Below are positions 1 to 15,787 of a stretch of 20,000 nt of DNA, piece by piece. Position numbers and translations under genes: made by a program. Every line of letters begins with the position of its first letter. Positions within the stretch are counted from its first letter, which is position 1. The stretch is from the IMG/VR virus record IMGVR_UViG_3300015263_001049, one strand, 5' to 3'. The notes beneath the pieces were generated by a model. It was not told the origin of the DNA. It did no database searches and saw only the letters and a program-made list of their open reading frames with translations. The stretch comes from an uncultured virus (IMG/VR IMGVR_UViG_3300015263_001049). Taxonomy: Duplodnaviria; Heunggongvirae; Uroviricota; Caudoviricetes.

Positions 1-358
1 TCGGGTAGCGGTCGTCCCCCCTTATCGGGAACGAGTGAGGAACCGGCTTCGCCGAGAACCCCATCTCCACCTGAGAGGACTCGGGCTCTGGCCGTGACGA
101 CCCTGCTCGCAAACCCTCCACCGTCACGACACCACCGGCTCGCTTCGTCACCCGTGTCCCAGCCTTGATGTCGAGCACCGTGATCTCCAAACCGGGGAAG
201 TGCTCCTCCGCCCACGCGAGACCATAGCCCTTCCGGGCTTCTACCTTCGCCTGCGGCGGATACCCCATCTCCGGAAAGGGTGACTTGGCGTCGAGCTGGA
301 GACACACTTGGTCCGGCCCCGTCAGGTTCGTCAGGATCTCGATGCTCTTGATCTTCAC
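1..358 (-). CDS. hypothetical protein, runs off window edge (MKIKSIEILTNLTGPDQVCLQLDAKSPFPEMGY...)
   Basis: Manually translated. GTG at 358 overlaps the TGA of the upstream gene (GTGA) and the frame is open to position 1. Confidence 0.65.
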   Translation of the reverse strand, partial: MKIKSIEILTNLTGPDQVCLQLDAKSPFPEMGYPPQAKVEARKGYGLAWAEEHFPGLEITVLDIKAGTRVTKRAGGVVTVEGLRAGSSRPEPESSQVEMGFSAKPVPHSFPIRGDDRYP

Positions 359-777
359 GTCCAACGATCCTCGTTGTAGAAGTCCTCTGCGTTCGCCTCG
401 AAACGGTCCGAGCCCGTGGACTCTTCGGTCACCCGGACGTCCACGTCGAGAGACTGACCGTTCTTCGTCGTAAACGGCCACGTCAGCCGCCCCACGTCAA
501 ACGTCTGGGCGTCCTTGCTCACGATGACGTGAACCGATGCCCTCCCGTTCCCGTGCGAGTTGTCCCCCCAGTAGCGACGGAGCCGGACGTACGGAGCATA
601 CCCCTCGGCCTCGTACTTCTTGCAAGAGCGAGCCACCTCCGCTGCGTCGTCCAGCATGAAGTCGTGAACCTGCCCCGTTCGGGCCGTCACCACCACGTGC
701 TGACCCATCCCTCGGACCACCACCACGTTGGGAGAGCTTTGGAAGTACGCCTCGAAATTCGGATCTTTCATCTTCAT
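355..777 (-). CDS. hypothetical protein (MKMKDPNFEAYF...)
   Basis: 3' part of ORF 355..906. ATG at 777 overlaps the stop of the preceding gene (ATGA). Confidence 0.75.
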   Translation of the reverse strand: MKMKDPNFEAYFQSSPNVVVVRGMGQHVVVTARTGQVHDFMLDDAAEVARSCKKYEAEGYAPYVRLRRYWGDNSHGNGRASVHVIVSKDAQTFDVGRLTWPFTTKNGQSLDVDVRVTEESTGSDRFEANAEDFYNEDRWT

Positions 778-971
778 CTTGTCACCATCCTGCAACGCCA
801 ACCTTCTTGTTGGAACCTGTCCTTGTAGGAGTTGCCGTCCACGTCGAGAAGCACCGTCCCATCGGCTCCGCGATAGACATGGACCTCGGCAAAAACCCCC
901 TCCCATGTCCCAACGACAGGACTCTCGGGAGGGTGCTTCTGCAACTCCGCTATCAGCTCGGCCACCGTCAT
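774..971 (-). CDS. small phage protein of the MTVAELIAELQKHPP type
   Basis: ATGA coupling at both ends. N-terminus resembles 12495..12722 (MKVKELIARLSQEDPE). Confidence 0.75.
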   Translation of the reverse strand: MTVAELIAELQKHPPESPVVGTWEGVFAEVHVYRGADGTVLLDVDGNSYKDRFQQEGWRCRMVTR

Positions 972-1162
972 AGCGGCTTCTCCAACCGCCAGATGCTCAT
1001 CGAGCTGAGGTCCGTGTTCTCCAACGTCCCCTCCTCCGTCTCCACCTGATACGTCACCCCATGCGGACCTAGAGCCGCTGTCCGTATCACCCCTCGCTTC
1101 TTCCCGTCCTTCCGGACGACCGGACGCCCCAGCAAACCCGTCTCCAGCTTCGTGTCGCTCAT
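968..1162 (-). CDS. small hypothetical protein, possibly SH3-like beta fold
   Basis: ATGA coupling, upstream AGGAAGGG. Confidence 0.7.
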   Translation of the reverse strand: MSDTKLETGLLGRPVVRKDGKKRGVIRTAALGPHGVTYQVETEEGTLENTDLSSMSIWRLEKPL

Positions 1163-1680
1163 CCCTTCCTCCCGCTCTTGCCAGGGGCCTTCTGCGAACC
1201 CCTCCTAAGCCTCCACGCAGCCCGGTGCCTCCGAATCTCCCGCACCATGGCAAGGACTAGCCTCGGGTTGATAGGAAGCCCCTCCTTCGACTCCCGCAGC
1301 TTCGACACCTCGACCTGCTCGACGAGGGCAAGGTCGTACTCCGTCAGGTCCCTACGGTGAGCATCCGAAGGTCCGGTGAGGTACAGCTCCCCTTTCTCCT
1401 CGATGAGCGAAGAACCAGGCTCCCTCACGTTCAGTCTCCGGGCTTCCTCCCGAAGTCCGCGCAAGAGCTGGGCAGGGTCCTTCCCCTCTCGGAGCACTAG
1501 GAGCCCGCCCGAAGGGCTCAAGAGGGTCGCTCGATAGTCCTCACACCCATACAGCCGCGTCACCTCGATGACCCGGCCGTACGGGTCTCGCCATTCCTTG
1601 CGATCCACCCAGCCTAGCTCCGGCGCAGGCTTCCCTCGCCAGGTTTGCTTCCATCGGTGAGGGTTCTCAAAGCTCGGCAT
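1159..1680 (-). CDS. hypothetical protein, first gene of the operon
   Basis: 173-aa ORF with GGTGTA 9 nt upstream of its ATG. Confidence 0.75.
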   Translation of the reverse strand: MPSFENPHRWKQTWRGKPAPELGWVDRKEWRDPYGRVIEVTRLYGCEDYRATLLSPSGGLLVLREGKDPAQLLRGLREEARRLNVREPGSSLIEEKGELYLTGPSDAHRRDLTEYDLALVEQVEVSKLRESKEGLPINPRLVLAMVREIRRHRAAWRLRRGSQKAPGKSGRKG

Positions 1681-1689
1681 CCCTGTCTC

Positions 1690-1695
1690 TACACC
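1690..1695 (-). promoter_or_regulatory. GGTGTA putative phage promoter element, 9 nt before ATG 1680
   Basis: Same hexamer at the same spacing before starts at 6060, 12078, 16698 and 19063. Confidence 0.7.
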
Positions 1696-1724
1696 AGACG
1701 GGTGGGGTCGGCCGCTCCAAAAGA

Positions 1725-2041
1725 CCAGATTCTAAAGGGAGCCAAGCCATTTTCGACCCCCGGACCCCAAAATTTTCCCGGACCAAAATTTTGACCCCCA
1801 CTTGACCCGAACCCCTTTCCAATTTGGCCTTTCTGAGTACCCCCCCACCCCAAGAATCGGTGCCGTCTCTGCTAGGTGACACGACACCTGGCCTTTCCAG
1901 GGCTTTTTTGACTCCGGGCTCCAAAAATTGACCGGGGCAAAATTCACGAAACCCCAGATTCTAAAGGGAATGGCACCAAAACCTGCCCCGTGTCATGCTG
2001 GAGAGACGTGCCGGTGCTCCGAAAGGCCAGATTTTGAAGGA
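1725..2041 (+). repeat. direct repeat CCAGATTCTAAAGGGA (1725-1740, 1954-1969) with a degenerate copy at 2027-2041, in an A-tract-rich intergenic region
   Basis: Exact 16-mer read twice. AAAATTTT at 1769 and 1785, AAAAATT at 1923, AAAATT at 1939. Confidence 0.85.
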
Positions 2042-2241
2042 AAAGACGACGGCGATGTCCGGGGCGAAGCCCCTGGACCGTGCGGCGGTACGTGGATCGT
2101 GCGTTAACTGGATACGCCCCTCCGACAAATTTTCCGGGTGTCAAGGAAATAATCGAGCGGTTCGGCGATCGAGTTGTGTCAAGCAGATTTTTCCGAGGAA
2201 ATATTTGGACCACCCTCCGGAGAGCCCCCGGATGACAGGGT

Positions 2242-3129
2242 GTGGGAGAAATGGTGCCCGTGAAACCAGGGCACCTCGATCGTCTAGGAGTCATGGCTAC
2301 CTCTGACCTCTCAGGAGTGTGCGACGACCTCTCACTCGTGAGCCAGTGGCTCCGAGGGAGGCCCGACTCCACCAAGCGGGCGTACGAGCCCGTGGCCCTC
2401 GCCTTCGTCAAGGCATGCGGGCCACTCAAGGAGGCCACCGTCGAGCGAGTCACCGCCTACGTGGAGGGGCTCCAGGGGGAGCCAGCGACCAGGGCTCGGC
2501 TGGTATCCACCATCAAAAGTCTTCTCTCGTGGGGGTGGCGTACAGGGTACCTGGCTGCAAACGTGGGGCGTAGTATCAGGTGCGTGAAGGTACCCTCAAA
2601 ACTTCATGGCAAACTTCTTTCCGAGGACGAGGTTCTTTCTCTCGTGCGTGCGGCCCCCCAGGGGGGCCGTGACCACGCCCTCTTGGTCCTCCTGTACGTG
2701 AGCGGCCTGCGTATCAGTGAGGCCATGAGCCTCAACTGGGGCGACCTCCGGGGCAACCACGTCAGCGTCACAGGCAAAGGTACCAAGAGCAGGACCGTTC
2801 TCATCCCTGCGTCTGCGGCCGACCTCCTCCGGAGTCTTCAGGAAGGTGTCCAGCAACCCCGCCAGAAGCCGATCTTCGTCTCCGCCACGACCGGGGACCG
2901 GCTGGGCGTCCGGGCTGCCAGGGAGGCTGTCTACAAGGCCGCCCTTCGGGTGGGCGACCGGCTGCCTCCCCACTGGCTCCGCCACGCTCATGCTTCGCAC
3001 GCCCTGGACAACGGGTGCCCGATCCACATCGTCCAGCAAGGGCTGGGTCACGCGAGCGTCAGCACGACGTCGAAGTACCTCCACGTGAAGCCGGGCGTTG
3101 GGCCTAGCCAGTGGCTCCGTCCGGTGTAG
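2242..3129 (+). CDS. tyrosine recombinase (XerC/D- or resolvase-like)
   Basis: Catalytic motifs SGLRISE (R), GKGTK (K), HWLRH (HxxR), LGHASVSTTSKY (H, Y). Has a core-binding N-domain and no arm-binding domain. Start uncertain (2242, 2251 or 2254). Confidence 0.95.
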   Translation: MGEMVPVKPGHLDRLGVMATSDLSGVCDDLSLVSQWLRGRPDSTKRAYEPVALAFVKACGPLKEATVERVTAYVEGLQGEPATRARLVSTIKSLLSWGWRTGYLAANVGRSIRCVKVPSKLHGKLLSEDEVLSLVRAAPQGGRDHALLVLLYVSGLRISEAMSLNWGDLRGNHVSVTGKGTKSRTVLIPASAADLLRSLQEGVQQPRQKPIFVSATTGDRLGVRAAREAVYKAALRVGDRLPPHWLRHAHASHALDNGCPIHIVQQGLGHASVSTTSKYLHVKPGVGPSQWLRPV

Positions 3130-3138
3130 TATCTGGAG

Positions 3139-3198
3139 ACGCCTCGATCGGGCTCGTGGTCAACCCCCCCTGACCCCCCGATCGAGGCGTTGTTTTTT
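3139..3198 (+). terminator. hairpin with 14-bp perfect arms followed by a T-tract
   Basis: ACGCCTCGATCGGG (3139-3152) pairs with CCCGATCGAGGCGT (3177-3190). Inner stem GGTCA/TGACC, then TGTTTTTT. Confidence 0.65.
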
Positions 3199-3422
3199 CC
3201 GGAAGACCGGGCGTCTCGATCGTCTACCCATTGGACGGAGGAAGGCTCCACGGGGGAGCTTAGCCGGACGGAGTAGGGACGCTTCGGGGAGGTGTACCCA
3301 AAATCCGGGCGTCCCCCGGACGGATCTCCCCGAGGCATGCCCCGGCGCCGGGTCAAGCTCGTCGGTCGAGCCTTCCTCCCGGCACCTAGTAGACGATCGA
3401 CCTCGGCCCGTTTTCGAGAAAA
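3195..3422 (+). ncRNA. long rod-like imperfect hairpin (candidate structured RNA or ssDNA element)
   Basis: Nested pairings 3216-3227/3389-3400, 3237-3248/3368-3379, 3256-3261/3355-3360, 3281-3291/3326-3336, 3304-3309/3315-3320. The structure is seen directly; the RNA call is inference. Confidence 0.55.
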
Positions 3423-3517
3423 GTTCGCACCTACATCCGGGCGTCTGAGCCCGTCCCCACTGGGGGGTCTGAGAACGCCCCCTTGACGCATCGCAGCTAG
3501 AAATGCAGGGCGACCGG

Positions 3518-3544
3518 ACCGGGGCTCTTCGGCCCCGGTTTTGT
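3518..3544 (+). terminator. intrinsic terminator-like hairpin
   Basis: ACCGGGGC-TCTTCG-GCCCCGGT followed by TTTGT. Confidence 0.7.
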
Positions 3545-3545
3545 C

Positions 3546-4103
3546 CTACACGGACTTGAGCTTCCGCCTGTATCGGGAGTCCGACCGACTCTCGTACGCC
3601 TCCAGGGCGGCTCGCAGACCGTCCAGGTTGCCCGTGGTGAGGGCGATACGGGCCGCTCGGGCGAACCCTTCCGCCAGCTCCTTGTTGGCCTTCCCAGGGT
3701 GCTTGTGACCGAGCGTCCTGTAGCGGTGTAGGTGCTGCTCGGAATGCGTCGCCAGCTCCAGGTTGTCGAGCCGGTTGTTGGCGGGGTCTCCGTCCTTGTG
3801 GTTCACGGTCATACGCTCGGGGATGTCCCCATGGGCCATCTGCCACACGAAGCGGGCGACCGAGACGGTCCAGTAGTGACCCTGAGCCCGGATCTTGAAG
3901 CACCGATGTCCGCCCTTGGGGCCGTTGTCGATGCGGCTCGGGGGTCGGAGGATAGACCGAAGCGCATCCATCCTCCGAAGGCGGTACACGGAGCCGTCCG
4001 GGTCGAGGCGTAGGTAGCCCTCACGGGCGAGCCGTGCCGCTTCACGCTCCGGGAAGTTCCTCGAATACGGCCCGCCCTTCCACTGCCCCGGTAGGTGCTC
4101 CAT
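3546..4103 (-). CDS. HNH endonuclease (homing-endonuclease-like)
   Basis: Motif VARFVW...GDIPERMTVNHKDGDPANNRLDNLELATHSEQHLH. Start re-assigned to ATG 4103 from the promoter position. Confidence 0.9.
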   Translation of the reverse strand: MEHLPGQWKGGPYSRNFPEREAARLAREGYLRLDPDGSVYRLRRMDALRSILRPPSRIDNGPKGGHRCFKIRAQGHYWTVSVARFVWQMAHGDIPERMTVNHKDGDPANNRLDNLELATHSEQHLHRYRTLGHKHPGKANKELAEGFARAARIALTTGNLDGLRAALEAYESRSDSRYRRKLKSV

Positions 4104-4109
4104 GACCCC

Positions 4110-4138
4110 ATTGTGAGGGGCGTATGCCGGACAGTCAA
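4110..4138 (-). promoter_or_regulatory. sigma70-like promoter TTGACT-N17-CACAAT, 6 nt before the HNH ATG (leaderless)
   Basis: -35 at 4133-4138, -10 at 4110-4115, exact 17-nt spacer, no SD sequence. Confidence 0.55.
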
Positions 4139-4357
4139 GCTCCGGCCTATGGACCTCAAAACGAGACTTCTCGGATCTACCCCCCGTTTCATCGGGGAAA
4201 CAGGGGCGTCCCGAGAGCCGAGCGACTGGCCGCTTCGCGGCCGGCGCAGGGCTGTCGCTCGATTCCCCCTCGCCCGTCAGGGTTCGAGGCAGCTCCCCCA
4301 CGAGCACGGGTCGGGGCCGTGCGTCATTTTCATGCCCGTTTCATCGGGCACGCCGGG

Positions 4358-4389
4358 AAAATACCATGCCCGAAGAGGCATGGTATTTT
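4358..4389. terminator. perfect 13-6-13 palindrome; bidirectional terminator or recombination site
   Basis: AAAATACCATGCC-CGAAGA-GGCATGGTATTTT. Confidence 0.6.
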
Positions 4390-4522
4390 GGAGGCCGGCT
4401 CGTCAAGCGGCGTACCAATTACCGCCTGTCGTTTGCCGCCGAATGTGTCCGTGAACGCGTTTGGTTTTCGGGGCTCCCTCACCTACCGGACCTACATAGG
4501 CGCCTTCGGCGCTCTTGTCTGT

Positions 4523-4558
4523 CGAGTACGTGAACGAGTACGTGAACGAGTACGTGAA
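4523..4558 (+). repeat. three exact tandem copies of CGAGTACGTGAA, followed by a G/A-rich tract
   Basis: Copies at 4523, 4535 and 4547. Confidence 0.95.
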
Positions 4559-4647
4559 CCGAGAAGGGGGTCCGGGGGGAGGGAGCGTCTGGAGAGGGGG
4601 AGGTCGATTCCGATCAGAATGGGCGACCTGTTGGCGTCCTCTCAGGC

Positions 4648-4956
4648 ATGTCTAGGAAGCTGTCTCGAAAGCGGGTCGAGACTCTGTACCCTTGTGAGCG
4701 TTGCGGGGTGTGTGAGCCTTCTGGGAGGCTTGGGCGAGTCCGCCTTGACGGTGTCGTTCGGACGGTCTGTCAGGTGTGTCGGGAGACGATTCGTCGGTTG
4801 GACCGTGGGCCTTCTCTGGAGGGTGTGGCTCTCGACTCTCTCGACTCTTCGCCTGTGGGACCGTCTGGTTCCGCCTATCCACTGACGGGGGTTGGGCGGC
4901 TCGTTGGGGCGGACGTTTTCATGCGTCTTCGGTGTCCACGTCTTCGGGGCGACTGA
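4648..4956 (+). CDS. possible small Zn-ribbon protein
   Basis: CERC...CQVC pairs. No convincing minus-strand gene in this interval and no clear RBS. Confidence 0.4.
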   Translation: MSRKLSRKRVETLYPCERCGVCEPSGRLGRVRLDGVVRTVCQVCRETIRRLDRGPSLEGVALDSLDSSPVGPSGSAYPLTGVGRLVGADVFMRLRCPRLRGD

Positions 4957-4982
4957 GGGGGTCGGGTCCGCCTGGGAGAAGC

Positions 4983-5072
4983 CTACCTCATGACACGTTG
5001 GGTCGTCCTTTGGGTCTTCAAGTAGTCGTCATAAAAGAGGAAACCTGACGAGTGAGGGATAGGCTGGATCAT
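4983..5072 (-). CDS. possible 29-aa peptide (MIQPIPHSSGFLFYDDYLKTQRTTQRVMR)
   Basis: ATGA overlap with the stop of the upstream gene is the only support. Confidence 0.3.
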   Translation of the reverse strand: MIQPIPHSSGFLFYDDYLKTQRTTQRVMR

Positions 5073-5278
5073 GGGGCACGGAGGCGGGTTTGGGCTTTGG
5101 CTCGGGCGCCCCCTTCGGTGGTTTCGGTGCCCCACCAACCGTCACGGTCGATGTCCAGGTGGGAGGGGCCGAAGAGGACTTCCCAGCGCCAGCAGTCGGG
5201 GGCGACTTGGGTGACGGTCGCCAAGTGGTCTTCGTAACGGGCGAAGCTGTATCCTGGCTCGGGTGTGGTCCAGTTCAT
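5069..5278 (-). CDS. small Trp-rich hypothetical protein (MNWTTPEPG...)
   Basis: ATGA overlap with the stop of the Eco29kI-like gene. Confidence 0.7.
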   Translation of the reverse strand: MNWTTPEPGYSFARYEDHLATVTQVAPDCWRWEVLFGPSHLDIDRDGWWGTETTEGGARAKAQTRLRAP

Positions 5279-6060
5279 GTGTCTACGGGGTTGAGGGCGG
5301 CCATGGTTTGTTGCCAAGCACGGAGGCAGTTTGGGATGAGGCGTTCGACTTCGGCTCTTGCGGCATTGAGGTCCCTTGGGTTCCGACCTGCGCCTGTACG
5401 TCCTGGGTGGAGGGTGTCCCAGAGGGAGGCTCTCTCGTTTCCGTTCCTTCGGTTGTCGAGGTTGTGGTGACGGGAGCCGAAGCCGAAGTGACCTACGTTC
5501 CAGAGGGGGTTGAAGAGGTCGTGGAGAGCCCTCTCGATGTCGAGGAGCGTGTGTGGGAGGATGAGGAATCTGGCGGTGAAGTTCTCTGGGCCTAAGCCAG
5601 TTTGGGTGAGGGATCTTCCGCCGTGTTGGTAGTAGATTCTGTCGTGGAGGGCGTCGGCTCGACCATCGGCTTTACCGATGTAGATGGGGCAAGTGGACCC
5701 TGGTGAGCGGAGGGGCTGATAGAGGTCGAAGTCGCCGTGGTAGAAGAGGGCGTAGACGCCGATTCCTTGGAAGGGGCGTACGGGTGGTTCGTGGAGTGGG
5801 AAGGGTCCGACGTTGAGGAGCCTTCGGGCGTGAGCGAGGATGAGCTTCGTACGGACGACGTCGCCCATGGGGTCGTAGGGGGTAAGGTCGCTCTCTTGGA
5901 AGGCCCTTGTTGGGGCTGGGCATTCGAGCTTTTCGACGACGACCGGGGCGGGTGGGAGGCAATCGAGGGGTGAGTCGTCGCCTTCGGGGGTGATGGGCTT
6001 TGGCTTCGGTTTGGGGAGGAAGTCGAGGGGGTCGTCGTCACCCTCCGGTGGTCTGAGCAT
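5275..6060 (-). CDS. Eco29kI-family GIY-YIG restriction-endonuclease-like protein
   Basis: GVYALFYHG...IYIGKA, IERAL...PLWN..GFG and WDTLHPGR are motifs characteristic of this family. Confidence 0.9.
   Translation of the reverse strand: MLRPPEGDDDPLDFLPKPKPKPITPEGDDSPLDCLPPAPVVVEKLECPAPTRAFQESDLTPYDPMGDVVRTKLILAHARRLLNVGPFPLHEPPVRPFQGIGVYALFYHGDFDLYQPLRSPGSTCPIYIGKADGRADALHDRIYYQHGGRSLTQTGLGPENFTARFLILPHTLLDIERALHDLFNPLWNVGHFGFGSRHHNLDNRRNGNERASLWDTLHPGRTGAGRNPRDLNAARAEVERLIPNCLRAWQQTMAALNPVDT
5953..6054 (-). repeat. internal duplication in the nuclease N-terminus (PEGDDDPLDFLP / PEGDDSPLDCLP)
   Basis: 60-nt period, visible in both DNA and protein. Confidence 0.8.
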
Positions 6061-6069
6061 CCGTGTGGG

Positions 6070-6075
6070 TACACC
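6070..6075 (-). promoter_or_regulatory. GGTGTA element, 9 nt before ATG 6060
   Basis: Recurrent motif at conserved spacing. Confidence 0.7.
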
Positions 6076-6076
6076 G

Positions 6077-6301
6077 TCATGGGATTCGGGCGTTACGGAG
6101 GGTCAGCTCGTGTTCGGCCATGGTTCTCTCTTCGGGTGTGAGGGGGCCGTTTGGTCCGTCGAAGGTTCCGTTGAGGAGGCCGCGAAGGTATTCGGTGGAG
6201 CACTCGTCGGGGGCGAAGACGAAGCGGATGGGGACGGCGAGGACGCCATGGGGCGGGACGTCTTCGTCTTGGGAGGCGTTGGTGAACGGCTTTTTCTTCA
6301 T
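6077..6301 (-). CDS. hypothetical protein
   Basis: ATGA coupling at 6298-6301. Confidence 0.65.
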   Translation of the reverse strand: MKKKPFTNASQDEDVPPHGVLAVPIRFVFAPDECSTEYLRGLLNGTFDGPNGPLTPEERTMAEHELTLRNARIP

Positions 6302-6492
6302 CGACGGCGTTGAGCTTTGCGGGCCTTCCGAGCGGCCTTGGCCTTGGAGCGATCGACGGGCTTACGGGGCTTCCCGTGGGCCTCTTGGTTGGGGAGCTTG
6401 GAGAGGCCGTCGAGGATGATTCGGTCTTCGTTTTCCATGTACTCTTGGTAGAAGCGGGCGCCTGTTGGGTAGGTGACGGGTTGGATTCTCAC
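6298..6492 (-). CDS. small protein with a basic C-terminus (KAKAARKARKAQRRR)
   Basis: Start re-assigned to GTG 6492, which overlaps the upstream TGA. Confidence 0.65.
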   Translation of the reverse strand: MRIQPVTYPTGARFYQEYMENEDRIILDGLSKLPNQEAHGKPRKPVDRSKAKAARKARKAQRRR

Positions 6493-6800
6493 GGGATCCA
6501 CTTGAGGGTAACGTAGGCCGTCGCTTGAGCGAGCGAAGGGAAGGTCCCTTGTGGGGCGCATTCACCGGAGACTTTGAAGCCTTCGGGGGTCAGCTCGATG
6601 AGGAAGCTCCCGTGGACGATGTTGACGAGGGGTTGGACCTCTCGGTGTGTTCCGCCACGGATCAGGTGGGGGTTTTGGCCTCGTGAGCGGGAGTTTTCCC
6701 AATCGAGAGGATGGGAGGCTTTGGCGTAGAGTCCTGCGTGTGTCAGCTCGTCTACGGATTCTTGGACATGTGCGAAGAGAAGAACGTCGTCGGGGGTCAT
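6489..6800 (-). CDS. hypothetical protein
   Basis: ATGA coupling, protein-like composition. Confidence 0.7.
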   Translation of the reverse strand: MTPDDVLLFAHVQESVDELTHAGLYAKASHPLDWENSRSRGQNPHLIRGGTHREVQPLVNIVHGSFLIELTPEGFKVSGECAPQGTFPSLAQATAYVTLKWIP

Positions 6801-7063
6801 ACTTTGCGGGCACGTGGGCCGTACTTCAGAACGGTGAGGGGGTCGAGGAGCGGGGAGCGGTACTTTTGCTCGGAGGGCCGTGACATCTTGTAGATTCGCG
6901 GCTTGTTCCAGTTGGGGCTATGGCATTTGGGGCATTTGCCTGGCTCGGGCCACGGGTCTTCGGGCTTTTTGCCATCGGGCTCGCGTTCGATGCCTTGGGG
7001 TTCCCATTCCCAGCCGCAGCGGATGCAGCGGTAGCCCCACATGGCGATGAGGGTCAGGGGCAT
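6797..7063 (-). CDS. Zn-ribbon protein
   Basis: CIRCGWEW...CPKCHSPNWNKPR. Confidence 0.8.
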   Translation of the reverse strand: MPLTLIAMWGYRCIRCGWEWEPQGIEREPDGKKPEDPWPEPGKCPKCHSPNWNKPRIYKMSRPSEQKYRSPLLDPLTVLKYGPRARKV

Positions 7064-7440
7064 ACGTCCTCACGCTCGAAACGGGTGGGTGCAATCCGGA
7101 GTGTCGCTCTTTGGGGGCATGGGATCCACGTCATCCACAAGGAGTTACGCCTTGAGATCCACCAATGGCTGTGGACCTTCTTGCGGAGGTACTCGGGGGC
7201 GTTAGGGTCGTCGGACTCGATGCTCACGCGGTGGCAGTCCGGGTCTGGGCTCCACTCGGTCTTGACGACACGAGCGGGGTAGACCCCGTGCATATCTGCG
7301 ACCTTGAGCCAATCACCGGGGCTCACGTCGAGGGGGCAATCCCAATCCGTTGTGCATTTAGGGCAACGGCACAAGTGGAAGATGCGGCACGTCCCACCGT
7401 TCGGTGGTGTGTCCCATTCGCCTGGGAAGGTGCAGCTCAT
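7054..7440 (-). CDS. Cys-rich hypothetical protein ending PTRFEREDVCP
   Basis: Start re-assigned to ATG 7440 (ATGA overlap, upstream GAGGAG). Confidence 0.7.
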   Translation of the reverse strand: MSCTFPGEWDTPPNGGTCRIFHLCRCPKCTTDWDCPLDVSPGDWLKVADMHGVYPARVVKTEWSPDPDCHRVSIESDDPNAPEYLRKKVHSHWWISRRNSLWMTWIPCPQRATLRIAPTRFEREDVCP

Positions 7441-8325: not shown

Positions 8326-8552
8326 GGTTCTTCCTTGGTTAGTTGCCTTCTTACGCTCGCGATGACCTTCTCGAACTTCCGCCCGTGCTCGGGGCACACG
8401 TCCGGGGTGTACCAGTCGATGAAGTCACGGGTGCGGGCTTCGGCGTAGCCGGTGACGAATCCAACGATGAGGATGTCGTCCTTTCCCGAGTGCTTGCAGG
8501 GGCCGGCGATGAGGCGGCAGATGTAGCAATCGGGGGCGAGTACGGTCGTCAT
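8310..8552 (-). CDS. small Cys/His protein (MTTVLAPDCYIC...)
   Basis: ATGA overlap at 8549-8552. Confidence 0.7.
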   Translation of the reverse strand: MTTVLAPDCYICRLIAGPCKHSGKDDILIVGFVTGYAEARTRDFIDWYTPDVCPEHGRKFEKVIASVRRQLTKEEPCSSP

Positions 8553-9433
8553 GGGCTCTCCAACAGGGCACCGTTCTCGGGGAGGATGAGCGTCACGAGG
8601 TAGTCTTTCAGCTCGGAGTCGTCCCGGAATTGCTTGTAGAAACGTGAAGCTCCCCCGGCGTCCCCAAAGCGATGACCCGTGCGGGCGCCTGTATGGAAGC
8701 TCCAATTTTTGCGACCCTCCGTGGTTTGAACGTCTTGCCTCGGCCCGCCAGCCGAGTGCATCCCGCCACCCAAGCTCTGCCTATCCAGCGCAGCGACCGG
8801 GCAGCCTGGGATACAGATCCAGTTGGGGACGGTTTCGGTTCCGTCTTCCCCGACGTGAATCGTAGCGACCTTGCTCTGTCTGGCACCATAAACGCCCGTT
8901 GTGATCGTACCCTCTCGACCTCTACCTACTGCACTAGACCTGTTGGCGCCTTGGACCGTTTTGGTTCCTTCTTGACGGCAACCTTCCCCGTGGACGAAGA
9001 CGAGGTTGGAGGGCCATCGTCCGGTTGAATGGGCGTAGGAGCCGGCTCGCTCTGCATTCGCGAACGACTTACCCTCGAATCCGCCATGGGCGTTCTTTGT
9101 TCCTCGGGCGTTCGCTGCGCTTCGGCCGTAGTCGTCCTCCGATGCCATACCGATACGGCAGGCGTCGATGTTGATCGCCCCCGTTCCGGTCTTCAACAGT
9201 TGATCGGCCACCGTACCTTCGAGGGGCTTACGTAGGAGCACGGCGAAGCTGAGCCCCTTCGGGCTAGCGATGGCGATCGTGTCCCGGACTTCCATCCCAG
9301 CACGACGGGCGTTGACGGAAGAGAGCCAAGGGGATTCCCCAATGAGGATCACGTGAGCCCCTGGAAGGAGGCTCTCCGAAACCTCGGGCCACATGAGGGC
9401 GTCCGAGGCTTTCAGGAAGGCTCCGTGGTTCAT
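8549..9433 (-). CDS. degenerate homologue of phage N6A/N4C DNA methyltransferases, catalytic motifs absent
   Basis: Retains GMEVRDTI, RKPLEGTVA..L..GTGAINIDACRI, GRWPSNL and GGASRFY. Lacks DPPY, HPTVKP and DPFxGSG. Confidence 0.8.
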   Translation of the reverse strand: MNHGAFLKASDALMWPEVSESLLPGAHVILIGESPWLSSVNARRAGMEVRDTIAIASPKGLSFAVLLRKPLEGTVADQLLKTGTGAINIDACRIGMASEDDYGRSAANARGTKNAHGGFEGKSFANAERAGSYAHSTGRWPSNLVFVHGEGCRQEGTKTVQGANRSSAVGRGREGTITTGVYGARQSKVATIHVGEDGTETVPNWICIPGCPVAALDRQSLGGGMHSAGGPRQDVQTTEGRKNWSFHTGARTGHRFGDAGGASRFYKQFRDDSELKDYLVTLILPENGALLESP

Positions 9434-10657: not shown

Positions 10658-11089
10658 TCAGCTCGACTTCGGGAGGTACCTTGTCTGGGCTCGTTCGCCG
10701 GTCTTCTCGATGAGCCCTTGCTCCAGGGCGGCCTTGATCAGCTCGGAGAGCTTGGGGCCGGTCGAGGTTCCGAGAGCCTTGGCGACGTCGGAGGCGGCCA
10801 TGGGCGTCGTGACAGCGGCCACGAGCTTGTCCAGCTCCTCCTTGGACGGTCCCGCCTTGGCGGGGGTACCATCGGCGTTCGTCTTGACCGGGAGGAAGTA
10901 GAACGTGTCCCCCTTAGAGACGATGTTGCAGACCTTCCCGCCGATGTCATGCGGACCCTTGCCGTGGGCGTCGCAGATTTGCTTCACAAGGGCGGCCCGA
11001 CGCCCCTTGACGACTTCCAGGGCTTTCTCGACCTTCTCTTGGGTCGCCGTTTGCTCCAGGTAGTTGTTGATCAGAGTCGACTTTTCCAC
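10658..11089 (-). CDS. protein with a C-terminal winged-helix-like DNA-binding domain
   Basis: ASDVAKALG...LIKAALEQGLIEKTGERAQTRY. GAGG SD before the GTG. Confidence 0.75.
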   Translation of the reverse strand: MEKSTLINNYLEQTATQEKVEKALEVVKGRRAALVKQICDAHGKGPHDIGGKVCNIVSKGDTFYFLPVKTNADGTPAKAGPSKEELDKLVAAVTTPMAASDVAKALGTSTGPKLSELIKAALEQGLIEKTGERAQTRYLPKSS

Positions 11090-11176: not shown

Positions 11177-11746
11177 ATGGGCTCGTCGCAGGTGATGGCG
11201 CTTCGGGTGGCAGCTCGGTTCATCCGAGCCAACTCCATGTGGTACCACTTGACGGATCGGGCGAAGTTCAAGCTCGATCCGAAGTTCACGCCAGCGGACA
11301 ACGCCATCGCGATCGAGGATCGTTCGGGGCGACCTGGGATCTACCTTGGGCAGAGCGTCGAGGCGTGGGTCAACGGGTACAACTACTGGCGCCCCTTCGT
11401 GGTGGAGATCAAGGTCGACCCTTCGGTCAAGGACGATCCGGGCGTTCATGGGCGCTACGGCGGCGAAATGTTCGTCCCAGCGACTTCGTTCGACAAGCTC
11501 CATATCCAACGGGTCATCCCGATCGATGCCTATGCTCGCGAGGAGTACGGTGAGCCAGGTTGGGTTGAGAGCGACCTTGGCGTGGAATTTGACACGGGTG
11601 AGCCGATTCCGCAGCGAGGACAGCCGGGTTGGGCGGAGGCGTACAAGAAGTACCGGGGTTACAGGTACCCCGGTCCCGATGTACGGCAGATGCCGGCCGG
11701 GGATGCTGCTCGGTTGAAGAAGGATCTTCGGAAGGCCAAGCGCTAG
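11177..11746 (+). CDS. putative ADP-ribosyltransferase-fold protein
   Basis: WYHLT...GIYL...VVEIKV...EMFV matches the H-Y-E-type strand pattern. Fold assignment is by eye. Confidence 0.55.
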   Translation: MGSSQVMALRVAARFIRANSMWYHLTDRAKFKLDPKFTPADNAIAIEDRSGRPGIYLGQSVEAWVNGYNYWRPFVVEIKVDPSVKDDPGVHGRYGGEMFVPATSFDKLHIQRVIPIDAYAREEYGEPGWVESDLGVEFDTGEPIPQRGQPGWAEAYKKYRGYRYPGPDVRQMPAGDAARLKKDLRKAKR

Positions 11747-12078
11747 GCTCGTAGGAGCTTGATCAGCTCGCTTAGGTCGCCGTGGGTCTTCCTGTAGTGA
11801 GGGTAGCCCTTCGGTACTCTACTGGGCTCCATAGACGAGCAGATGACGATACGCGGCAGGTTCAGGAAGTCCTTGACGGCTTCCAAAAACTCATAGCCTG
11901 TCATCACGGGCATCATCAGATCCAAGGCGATGGAGTCAAACGGCTCGCCTCCGGCCTTCAAGACTTCAAGAGCCTCCCACCCATCCCTTGTGGGCGTTAC
12001 CTTGAACCCTTCTAGGGTCAAGGAGGTCTCGGTCAACTCCCTCAGATCCACGTCATCTTCAACGAGGAGCACCCGCAT
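11743..12078 (-). CDS. stand-alone CheY-like response-regulator receiver
   Basis: MRVLLVEDD, ALDLMMPVMTGYEFL (phosphoacceptor D), ICSS, and K followed by T instead of P. Confidence 0.92.
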   Translation of the reverse strand: MRVLLVEDDVDLRELTETSLTLEGFKVTPTRDGWEALEVLKAGGEPFDSIALDLMMPVMTGYEFLEAVKDFLNLPRIVICSSMEPSRVPKGYPHYRKTHGDLSELIKLLRA

Positions 12079-12088
12079 AACCTTGAGA

Positions 12089-12094
12089 TACACC
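12089..12094 (-). promoter_or_regulatory. GGTGTA element, 10 nt before ATG 12078
   Basis: GGTGTATCTCAAGGTTATG, nearly identical to the 16709 copy. Confidence 0.7.
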
Positions 12095-12174
12095 ATTACA
12101 AACCGGCCATCTCGAAACGCATAATTTGCAGGGGCTTTTCGCCGCAGTCTTGAGGGCGTTCAGAGACCCCCGGA

Positions 12175-14428: not shown

Positions 14429-14450
<22 letters not shown>
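14001..14450 (-). CDS. protein with a C-terminal multi-Cys Zn finger
   Basis: CVRC...CSVC...CREC...CSQDC. Confidence 0.75.

Positions 14451-15787
<1,337 letters not shown>

What the first reader, a model, noticed from the sequence alone, without database searches (positions are those of the whole stretch)
1681..4620. Non-coding island where GC skew flips without a change in gene orientation: candidate replication origin plus resolution locus
Seen: genes on both flanks are on the minus strand, yet the + strand is strongly C-rich on the left (1021-1080: 28 C, 11 G) and strongly G-rich on the right (5761-5820: 29 G, 8 C). Between them lie the only long intergenic stretches of the window, a tyrosine recombinase, repeats and palindromes. 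Established: skew inversions mark bidirectional origins, and plasmid-prophages such as P1 (Cre/loxP) carry a dimer-resolving recombinase. Inference: an origin and maintenance hub of a phage-plasmid, or a junction of genome ends.
Basis: partly seen in the sequence, partly recalled or inferred. Interest (0 to 1): 0.7.

Follow-up and report, generated by a model that had tools for sequence, protein, structure and literature searches.

The report
Candidate replication origin, jumbo phage
In an uncultured giant bacterial virus, the DNA strand bias switches at a short non-coding motif that several relatives share, which probably marks a start point of DNA copying, while the neighbouring recombinase is an optional passenger.

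Summary
The skew flip is real and independent of gene direction. Fourfold sites on the coding strand are G152:C68 in the five left genes and G30:C227 in the first six right genes. The island is 47% coding (recombinase, HNH nuclease), with a flat floor between change points near 1990 and 4520.

The window belongs, by synteny, to a large family of uncultured jumbo phages. The sharp right-hand switch coincides with a non-coding motif, TTTGGTWTNCGGGG (4460-4473), followed by tandem repeats and G-runs. This motif occurs once, in the same orientation, in 4 of 13 relatives. In three it lies within 0.5 kb of the genome's largest G+T jump; the fourth, a held-out case, shows no jump. The bias fades with a length of about 2.3 kb, as expected where a displaced strand stays single-stranded.

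The 'resolution hub' is not supported: the recombinase is absent from all 5 complete relatives picked by capsid protein and usually lies 40-80 kb from the switch. No ParA or protelomerase was found.

Best reading: replication origin (0.55). The edge of a terminal repeat and strong transcription remain open.

The parts
1..1680 (-). Left arm: five small minus-strand genes, plus strand C-rich (skew -0.20), coding strand G- and T-rich at fourfold sites
   Evidence: the 173-aa gene 1159-1680 has an orthologue next to the recombinase in G001
1720..2042 (+). A-tract-rich gap with three boxes CCAGATTYTRAAGG (1725, 1954, 2027) and a degenerate inverted copy (1814-1841); holds the left change point (about 1990). 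Candidate protein-binding boxes or second, leftward start site (inferred)
   Evidence: G001 has its own different box, 7 copies in one family plus inverted copies, around the same genes
1915..1935 (+). Conserved non-coding element A (20 of 21 bases identical in G001)
2145..2162 (+). Conserved non-coding element B upstream of the recombinase (17 of 18 identical in G001); probably regulatory (inferred)
2293..3129 (+). Tyrosine recombinase, 278 aa, XerC/D/XerA-like, no arm-binding domain; R140, K162, H227, R230, H253 and Y262 match the R-K-H-R-H-Y set; accessory in the family
   Evidence: PF00589 E 1.4e-29; below the XerC and XerD cut-offs; alignment; PDB XerA/XerD best hits; presence tally
3216..3400 (.). 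Long imperfect inverted repeat behind the recombinase; 3264-3291 (28 bp) is identical in G001. Possible recombinase site or RNA hairpin, untested
   Evidence: folding z -4.95 here and -6.97 in G001; alignments; no Rfam match near a gathering score; not found beside the recombinase in G002, G003, G011
3546..4103 (-). HNH (HNH_3) endonuclease with its own sigma70-like promoter (4138-4110); absent at this place in G001, so a local insertion or replacement
4358..4389 (.). Perfect 13-6-13 palindrome; its CATGCC lies at -95 from the motif, exactly as a CATGCC in G004, which has no recombinase
4460..4473 (+). Core motif D, TTTGGTWTNCGGGG, at the right change point: candidate origin core
   Evidence: single copy in window, G001, G004, G005, G013; G+T change point within -93 to +122 of it
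4523..4559 (+). Three tandem 12-bp repeats (iteron-like). Relatives carry their own direct repeats just behind motif D
4566..4600 (+). Runs of 5-6 G on the motif strand; G-runs and no C-runs follow the motif in all four genomes checked
4648..7063 (.). Right arm: plus strand G- and T-rich (GC skew +0.27, AT skew -0.25), decay length about 2.3 kb; includes an Eco29kI-like nuclease (5275-6060, minus strand)
10658..11089 (-). 143-aa coiled-coil protein with a predicted winged-helix C-terminus; orthologues lie 0.2-6 kb from the motif or switch in G001, G004, G005 and G007. Candidate site-binding protein (inferred)
   Evidence: fold hits to winged-helix proteins only at E >= 0.0065; the winged helix is missing from three orthologues

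Best explanation
The window is part of the variable small-gene region of an uncultured jumbo phage, and the DNA around 4360-4600 is a replication start site. Shown: a strand-bound G+T excess begins at motif D, whatever the direction of the genes, fades over 2-3 kb, and a mirrored bias lies on the left. Inferred: leading-strand synthesis starts near motif D and runs rightward, possibly primed by a transcript held on the G-runs as an R-loop. The parental plus strand stays displaced and single-stranded until helicase and primase load, so it accumulates C-to-T and A-to-G changes. A leftward fork starts at or near the boxes around 1720-2040. The recombinase and the HNH gene are accessory genes lying between the two edges, not part of the origin.
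For: Skew at fourfold sites and change points. Motif D coincides with the best G+T change point: window +106, G001 0, G004 -7, G005 +483. That jump is the largest in the whole record for G001, G004 and G005. About 0.01 exact motif copies are expected per genome by chance. The extended motif hits 4 contigs in the viral collection, all family members. 58 chance matches of the short motif in unrelated contigs have jumps of 0.003 +/- 0.023, maximum 0.059, against 0.118 here, 0.180 in G004 and 0.093 in G001. Natural experiment: the 88-aa gene is C-biased here, downstream of D (G6:C30), and unbiased in G001, upstream of D (G12:C12), Fisher p 0.009. The motif lies 138-163 kb upstream of the capsid gene in all four carriers. 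G001 encodes a family-A polymerase, DnaB, clamp-loader subunits and RNase HII. In T4 in vitro, R-loop-primed leading-strand synthesis without helicase stops after about 2.5 kb (PMC3016281, passages).
Against: The held-out carrier G013 shows no jump (p 0.47), and G005, its near twin at this locus, only a weak one (0.041 at the motif, no GC difference). The motif is absent from 9 of 13 relatives, among them G002, G003, G007 and G011, which have clear switches. The window ranks only fourth when held out from the motif matrix. No easily melted stretch lies upstream of D in the window (20.8th percentile for 60-mers), although relatives have one (0.2-1.6 percentile). In G001 the bias turns C-rich again 4 kb past D. 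The T7 origin region shows almost no jump (0.015; origin position recalled). There is no direct evidence of replication or of a primer RNA.
Confidence: 0.55

Rival explanations
1. The switch marks the physical end of the packaged genome, the edge of a long direct terminal repeat collapsed by assembly. Strand displacement during end duplication, or replication from the ends, makes the bias.
For: Switches come in pairs 6-9 kb apart in G003, G007 and G011, 17 kb apart in G002 and 2.5 kb apart here. The region is rich in small genes with repeated promoter-like cassettes, as in the SPO1 terminal redundancy. An earlier scan note raised the same rival (e1-5783042).
Against: The edges of the SPO1 terminal repeat show no such switch. 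The strongest arms here and in G007 point outward from the pair, which duplication inside a repeat does not explain (inference). G001 and G004 have one dominant jump, not two. An end and an origin may also coincide.
Confidence: 0.2
2. Motif D is part of a very strong promoter. Transcription alone exposes the non-template plus strand, and the bias fades as transcripts terminate; no replication starts here.
For: A plus-strand ORF begins at 4648 and is G- and T-rich at fourfold sites (G28:C11, T29:A5). In G004, G005 and G013 the downstream genes lie on the motif strand. The motif resembles the GGTGTA-GGGG element seen before many genes of the family (resemblance by eye).
Against: Here and in G001 the biased genes are transcribed the other way, so long antisense read-through is needed. 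Many promoter cassettes in these genomes have no such jump. The sigma70 scan finds no promoter at D. G005 and G013, with co-oriented genes, have the weakest bias.
Confidence: 0.15
3. One reading: a P1-like phage-plasmid origin with a linked dimer-resolving recombinase acting on the 13-6-13 palindrome or the hairpin behind the gene.
For: The recombinase is intact and Xer-like. It lies 2 kb from D in G001, and a second, divergent copy lies 5 kb from the switch in G011. G003's third-ranked jump (0.070) is beside its recombinase. A 14-6-14 palindrome sits at the G011 switch.
Against: Absent from 9 of 10 capsid-picked relatives and 5 of 5 complete ones. It lies about 80 kb (G003), 41-58 kb (G002) and 52 kb (G011, first copy) from the main switch. 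The palindrome is not kept in G001, and such palindromes number 3-29 per genome. No ParA and no protelomerase. dif sites lie at the terminus, not the origin (PMC5357621, passages).
Confidence: 0.05
4. Artefact or foreign DNA: an assembly chimera, or a recently acquired or inverted C-ending gene block on the right.
For: The variable region is rearranged between the window and G001 (two genes moved across D, two inverted). No laid contig bridges 2917-6588, so that junction is unchecked.
Against: G001 has the same order: 173-aa gene, A, B, recombinase, hairpin, D, Eco29kI remnant. The same kind of fading switch occurs in six other relatives. The bias starts in non-coding DNA and decays smoothly across unrelated genes.
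Confidence: 0.05

Closest known systems
GC-skew switches of huge phages read as bidirectional replication (Al-Shayeb et al. 2020, PMC7162821, passages; Chen et al. 2020, PMC7111523, passages)
   Same: Cumulative-skew minimum in an intergenic region with a small repeat array; about 30% of huge phages were reported to show a bidirectional pattern.
   Different: Here the bias is strongest at the switch and fades within a few kb, often comes as a pair, and is tied to a named motif in part of one family.
T4 R-loop origins oriF/oriG (PMC3016281, passages); ColE1 and mitochondrial RNA-primed origins (same passages)
   Same: One-directional start with an exposed non-template strand; about 2.5 kb of uncoupled synthesis in vitro without helicase; the nearest relative encodes RNase H and a clamp loader.
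   Different: The family has a family-A polymerase, not T4's family B (T4's family recalled). No promoter, primer RNA or unwinding element is shown here, and there is no sequence homology.
Iteron origins of plasmids and lambdoid phages (own knowledge)
   Same: Short direct repeats that differ between phages, beside a conserved core; a winged-helix gene nearby.
   Different: Only 2-3 repeats, no AT-rich melt region in the window, and no Rep-family match for the neighbouring protein.
XerC/XerD/XerA single-site tyrosine recombinases; P1 Cre-loxP (PMC5357621, passages; Cre recalled)
   Same: About 280 aa with the R-K-H-R-H-Y set and no arm-binding domain.
   Different: Below the XerC and XerD cut-offs, sporadic in the family, no conserved adjacent site, and near a skew minimum rather than a terminus.
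Uncultured phage LR745208.1 (485 kb), Tunturiibacter phage Tunturi 5, Bacillus phage G
   Same: Capsid protein 84%, 48% and 38% identical to that of the nearest relative G001.
   Different: The window holds no capsid gene; the family link is through synteny with G001. I did not analyse these records' skew.

Membership tests
Bidirectional replication origin (skew-defined) | C-rich to G-rich switch independent of gene direction | tested here: met
Bidirectional replication origin (skew-defined) | Switch is the main one of the whole genome | tested here: inconclusive
   No own genome. The homologous site is the largest G+T jump in G001, G004 and G005, with no jump in G013.
Bidirectional replication origin (skew-defined) | DNA synthesis starts here | not testable with these tools
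   needs nascent-strand or copy-number data
DnaA-dependent oriC-type origin | Cluster of DnaA boxes | tested here: not met
   none within one mismatch in 1681-4650 (consensus recalled)
Iteron origin | Direct repeats beside the start site | tested here: met
   3 x 12 bp here; 2-4 repeats in four relatives
Iteron origin | AT-rich unwinding element | tested here: inconclusive
   not in the window (20.8th percentile); present in G001, G004, G005 (0.2-1.6 percentile)
Iteron origin | Cognate Rep initiator | tested here: inconclusive
   winged-helix-like neighbour, no significant family or fold match
T4-type R-loop origin | Promoter upstream of an unwinding element, with a persistent RNA-DNA hybrid | not testable with these tools
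   no sigma70-type promoter at D; the phage's own promoters are not covered by that scan
P1-type phage-plasmid | ParA/ParB partition system | tested here: not met
   PF01656 0 of 3, PF02195 1 of 5 relatives; the window's own genome is not held
P1-type phage-plasmid | Resolvase as a constant gene with its own site | tested here: not met
   0 of 5 complete capsid-picked relatives; site not conserved
N15-type linear phage-plasmid | Protelomerase | tested here: not met
   PF16684 0 of 5 relatives
Tyrosine recombinase superfamily | R-K-H-R-H/W-Y catalytic set and integrase domain | tested here: met
XerC/XerD equivalogs | Score above the curated cut-off | tested here: not met
   142.8 vs 335 and 124.3 vs 330 bits
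Long direct terminal repeat edge | Coverage step and read-start pile-up | not testable with these tools
   only assembled contigs were available

The most novel reading that the evidence does not exclude
This jumbo-phage family starts replication at one or two one-directional, RNA-primed sites where its family-A polymerase runs 2-3 kb ahead of helicase and primase loading. The fading G+T footprint, together with motif D, would then map origins and the length of the uncoupled phase from sequence alone across a family with hundreds of uncultured members.
Probability: 0.3. Interest if true: 0.6.

Novelty: new member of a known kind. Interest (0 to 1): 0.38.

Why it matters
Origins of uncultured jumbo phages are mostly guessed from skew plots. 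Here the guess narrows to about 250 bp with a conserved core, in a family with 582 capsid loci in the viral collection. That gives a defined fragment for binding and minireplicon tests. It also warns that a Xer-like recombinase beside a skew switch is not evidence of a phage-plasmid lifestyle.

Tried and rejected
The 16-mer box gave 11 viral hits with no similarity to the window, and the 16-mer of the hairpin gave two unrelated contigs besides G001: chance. The single-protein locus search found nothing; an alignment was needed. None of the metagenome or genome loci came close to the phage clade (best 45%). No tRNA or tmRNA was found and no Rfam family. No DnaE in 3 of 3 relatives. No similar DNA among cultured phages apart from 43 bp of an HNH gene.

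Sequencing runs: no RNA holder listed. Run X1 may be the source. One of its contigs spans 1-2916, and nothing covered 2917-6588 in the 44% read. Contig depths of 20.4, 14.2 and 12.5 cannot be used as a gradient or step.

Controls with T7 and SPO1 showed neither pattern and so do not separate origin from end. The strand-corrected fourfold scan ranked the site first in G003, G004 and G007, second in G001, third in G005, and missed it in G011; its automatic gene calls include shadow ORFs. G003's exact short-motif match lies inside the terminase gene and was treated as chance. Of 80 listed loci in that control, 15 lacked 1 kb of flank and were dropped; of the other 65, 58 had no family hit. The skew of G006, G008, G009, G010 and G012 was not computed, and G013 was seen only over 16 kb.

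Literature searches returned no paper on this family's origin. No supplements were read; those of PMC7162821 may bear on the family's name and replication mode.
Full report
Observation. Cumulative GC skew falls to -251 by base 2000, stays flat to about 4400 (minimum at 3695) and then climbs. Over 1-7100 one change point gains 65.7 log-likelihood units, against a maximum of 8.1 in 200 shuffles. Two change points fall at 1992 (range 1808-2075) and 4517 (range 4441-4577), with G shares of G+C of 0.40, 0.50 and 0.63. The flip is not an effect of protein composition. At fourfold-degenerate sites the five left minus-strand genes have G152:C68 and the first six right minus-strand genes G30:C227. T over A follows the same strand rule. 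The right-hand bias is local: the C share is 0.92 in the first 2 kb, 0.78 in the third and about 0.61 beyond 5 kb, and an exponential fit gives 2.3 kb (1384 sites, gain 37 units). The island is not non-coding: a tyrosine recombinase (2293-3129, plus strand) and an HNH nuclease (3546-4103, minus strand) fill 1395 of 2940 bases.

What the DNA is. No genome is held for the window. An alignment of 16 recombinase homologues found three large viral contigs: G001 (286 kb, 65% identity), G002 (452 kb) and G003 (437 kb, complete). Eight of 44 window ORFs hit G001. G001 encodes a capsid protein, portal, terminase, baseplate wedge, family-A DNA polymerase, DnaB, clamp-loader subunits, RecA and RNase HII. 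No DnaE was found. Its capsid protein is 92-98% identical in six other records and has 582 relatives in the viral collection. The nearest GenBank records are uncultured phage LR745208.1 (84%), Tunturi 5 (48%) and phage G (38%). The window itself has no capsid gene, so membership rests on synteny. G001 keeps the order 173-aa gene, elements A and B, recombinase, hairpin, motif D, Eco29kI remnant, which makes a chimera unlikely.

The switch and motif D. Aligning the gaps of the window and G001 showed a shared non-coding motif at 4460-4473. A genome-wide scan found the exact 14-mer once in G001 and once in G004 (about 0.01 expected per genome) and with one change in G005. An extended pattern hit four contigs in the whole viral collection: these three and a new family member, G013. 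In every carrier the motif has the same orientation relative to the core genes, lies 138-163 kb upstream of the capsid gene and is followed by phage-specific direct repeats. G-runs follow it in the four genomes checked. The best G+T change point lies at +106 (window), 0 (G001), -7 (G004) and +483 (G005) from the motif, and it is the largest such jump in each of those three records. Chance matches of a short form in 58 unrelated contigs show no jump (mean 0.003, sd 0.023, maximum 0.059). The downstream genes oppose the motif strand in the window and G001 but follow it in G004, so the bias belongs to the strand. The 88-aa gene sits downstream of D here (G6:C30) and upstream in G001 (G12:C12; p 0.009); the 143-aa gene shifts the same way (p 0.07).

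Results against. I first noticed the motif in G004 by looking at its switch, so G013 is the only fully held-out carrier, and it shows no jump (p 0.47). G005, nearly identical to G013 at this locus, has a weak one. The motif is missing from G002, G003, G007 and G011, which have strong fading switches of their own, paired 6-9 kb apart in three and 17 kb apart in G002. It has no exact match in G006, G008, G009, G010 or G012. With the window held out, the motif matrix ranks its site only fourth. The window lacks the easily melted stretch that G001, G004 and G005 have upstream. In G001 the bias reverses 4 kb past D, where genes are inverted relative to the window. T7's origin region (position recalled) and SPO1's terminal-repeat edges both lack such a jump, so these controls decide nothing.

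The recombinase. It has the full catalytic set and is most like XerA/XerD, but it scores far below the XerC and XerD cut-offs. Among ten relatives picked by capsid protein only G011 has it, and all five complete ones lack it by two searches. It lies about 80 kb from the main switch in G003, 41-58 kb in G002 and 52 kb in G011, though 2 kb in G001. A divergent second copy is 5 kb from the switch in G011, and G003's third-ranked jump is beside its copy. In G002 and G011 it is packed between genes with no flanking hairpin, and in G003 it follows the repeated promoter-like cassette. The 28-bp element behind it is shared only with G001. The 13-6-13 palindrome at 4358-4389 has the shape of a recombinase core site. 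However, G001 lacks it, 3-29 such palindromes occur per genome, and its CATGCC recurs at the same -95 position in recombinase-free G004. ParA was found in 0 of 3 genomes, ParB in 1 of 5 and protelomerase in 0 of 5. The gene may still resolve or invert DNA in this phage, but it is an accessory gene.

Mechanism. Cytosine deamination acts mainly on single-stranded DNA and leaves G+T excess on the strand with leading-strand sequence (PMC10030826, passages). A C-rich to G-rich switch is the sign expected at an origin (PMC7111523, passages). About 30% of huge phages show bidirectional skew (PMC7162821, passages). A constant replisome would give a constant skew, so the fade suggests a start-up phase in which the displaced strand is exposed for longer. 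T4 origins prime from R-loops, and without helicase synthesis runs about 2.5 kb with no lagging strand (PMC3016281, passages). I infer the same kind of start at D with the family-A polymerase, and a leftward start near the boxes at 1720-2040. The primer RNA, the initiator and the role of the 143-aa winged-helix-like protein are not shown. Rivals are a terminal-repeat edge (0.2), transcription alone (0.15), the P1-like hub (0.05) and an artefact (0.05).

Papers also seen: PMC5357621 (passages), PMC11924767 (passages, nothing on termini), bioRxiv 10.64898/2026.10.21.760668 (abstract and outline, not used). No supplements were read. Seven searches found no description of this family's origin. Earlier scan notes report similar fading or paired switches in other jumbo phages; they are leads, not support.

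Verdict. A real feature and probably a replication origin of a known kind in an uncultured jumbo-phage family, now narrowed to about 250 bp. The resolution-hub and phage-plasmid parts are not supported. Interest 0.38.

Noticed in passing
window 1639-1645: One contig of run X1 differs at four of seven bases inside the 173-aa gene and nowhere else over 2916 bases; possible allele or patch exchange.
   Followed up: no
window 2262-2286, 3202-3226, 3389-3400: A TCGATCGTCTA word lies just before the recombinase start, behind the gene and inverted in the hairpin; possible autoregulatory or binding sites.
   Followed up: partly
window 5275-6060; L012 13325-13870: Eco29kI-like nuclease, whole here and in G002, decayed in G001.
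   Followed up: partly
window 14429-15787: 452-aa sigma70-like protein with a Glu-Pro repeat and a long C-terminal extension.
   Followed up: no
window 8549-9433: ORF without a Pfam hit that matches part of the N6/N4 methyltransferases of five relatives; perhaps a split or truncated gene.
   Followed up: no
window 11743-12096: Stand-alone response-regulator receiver domain.
   Followed up: no
L257 4209-5246 (G001): Actin-like protein of the Volactin family, about 60% identical in G002 and G003; one literature search found no phage paper on it.
   Followed up: partly
L258 10804-11673 (G001): The capsid protein is 92-98% identical across genomes whose polymerases are only 43-69% identical.
   Followed up: no
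L276 16680-19900 (G003): Cluster of small genes each behind a near-identical promoter-like cassette, lying between the two skew switches; the same cassette precedes the G003 recombinase.
   Followed up: partly
G007 116.4 and 124.2 kb; G011 296.1 and 305.0 kb; G003 195.6 and 201.5 kb: Paired fading switches without motif D; G011 has a 14-6-14 palindrome at its main switch.
   Followed up: partly
L513 4001-4016: A 59-kb contig without family hits has the short motif in a G-rich context and the highest jump among the controls (0.059); possibly a missed relative.
   Followed up: no
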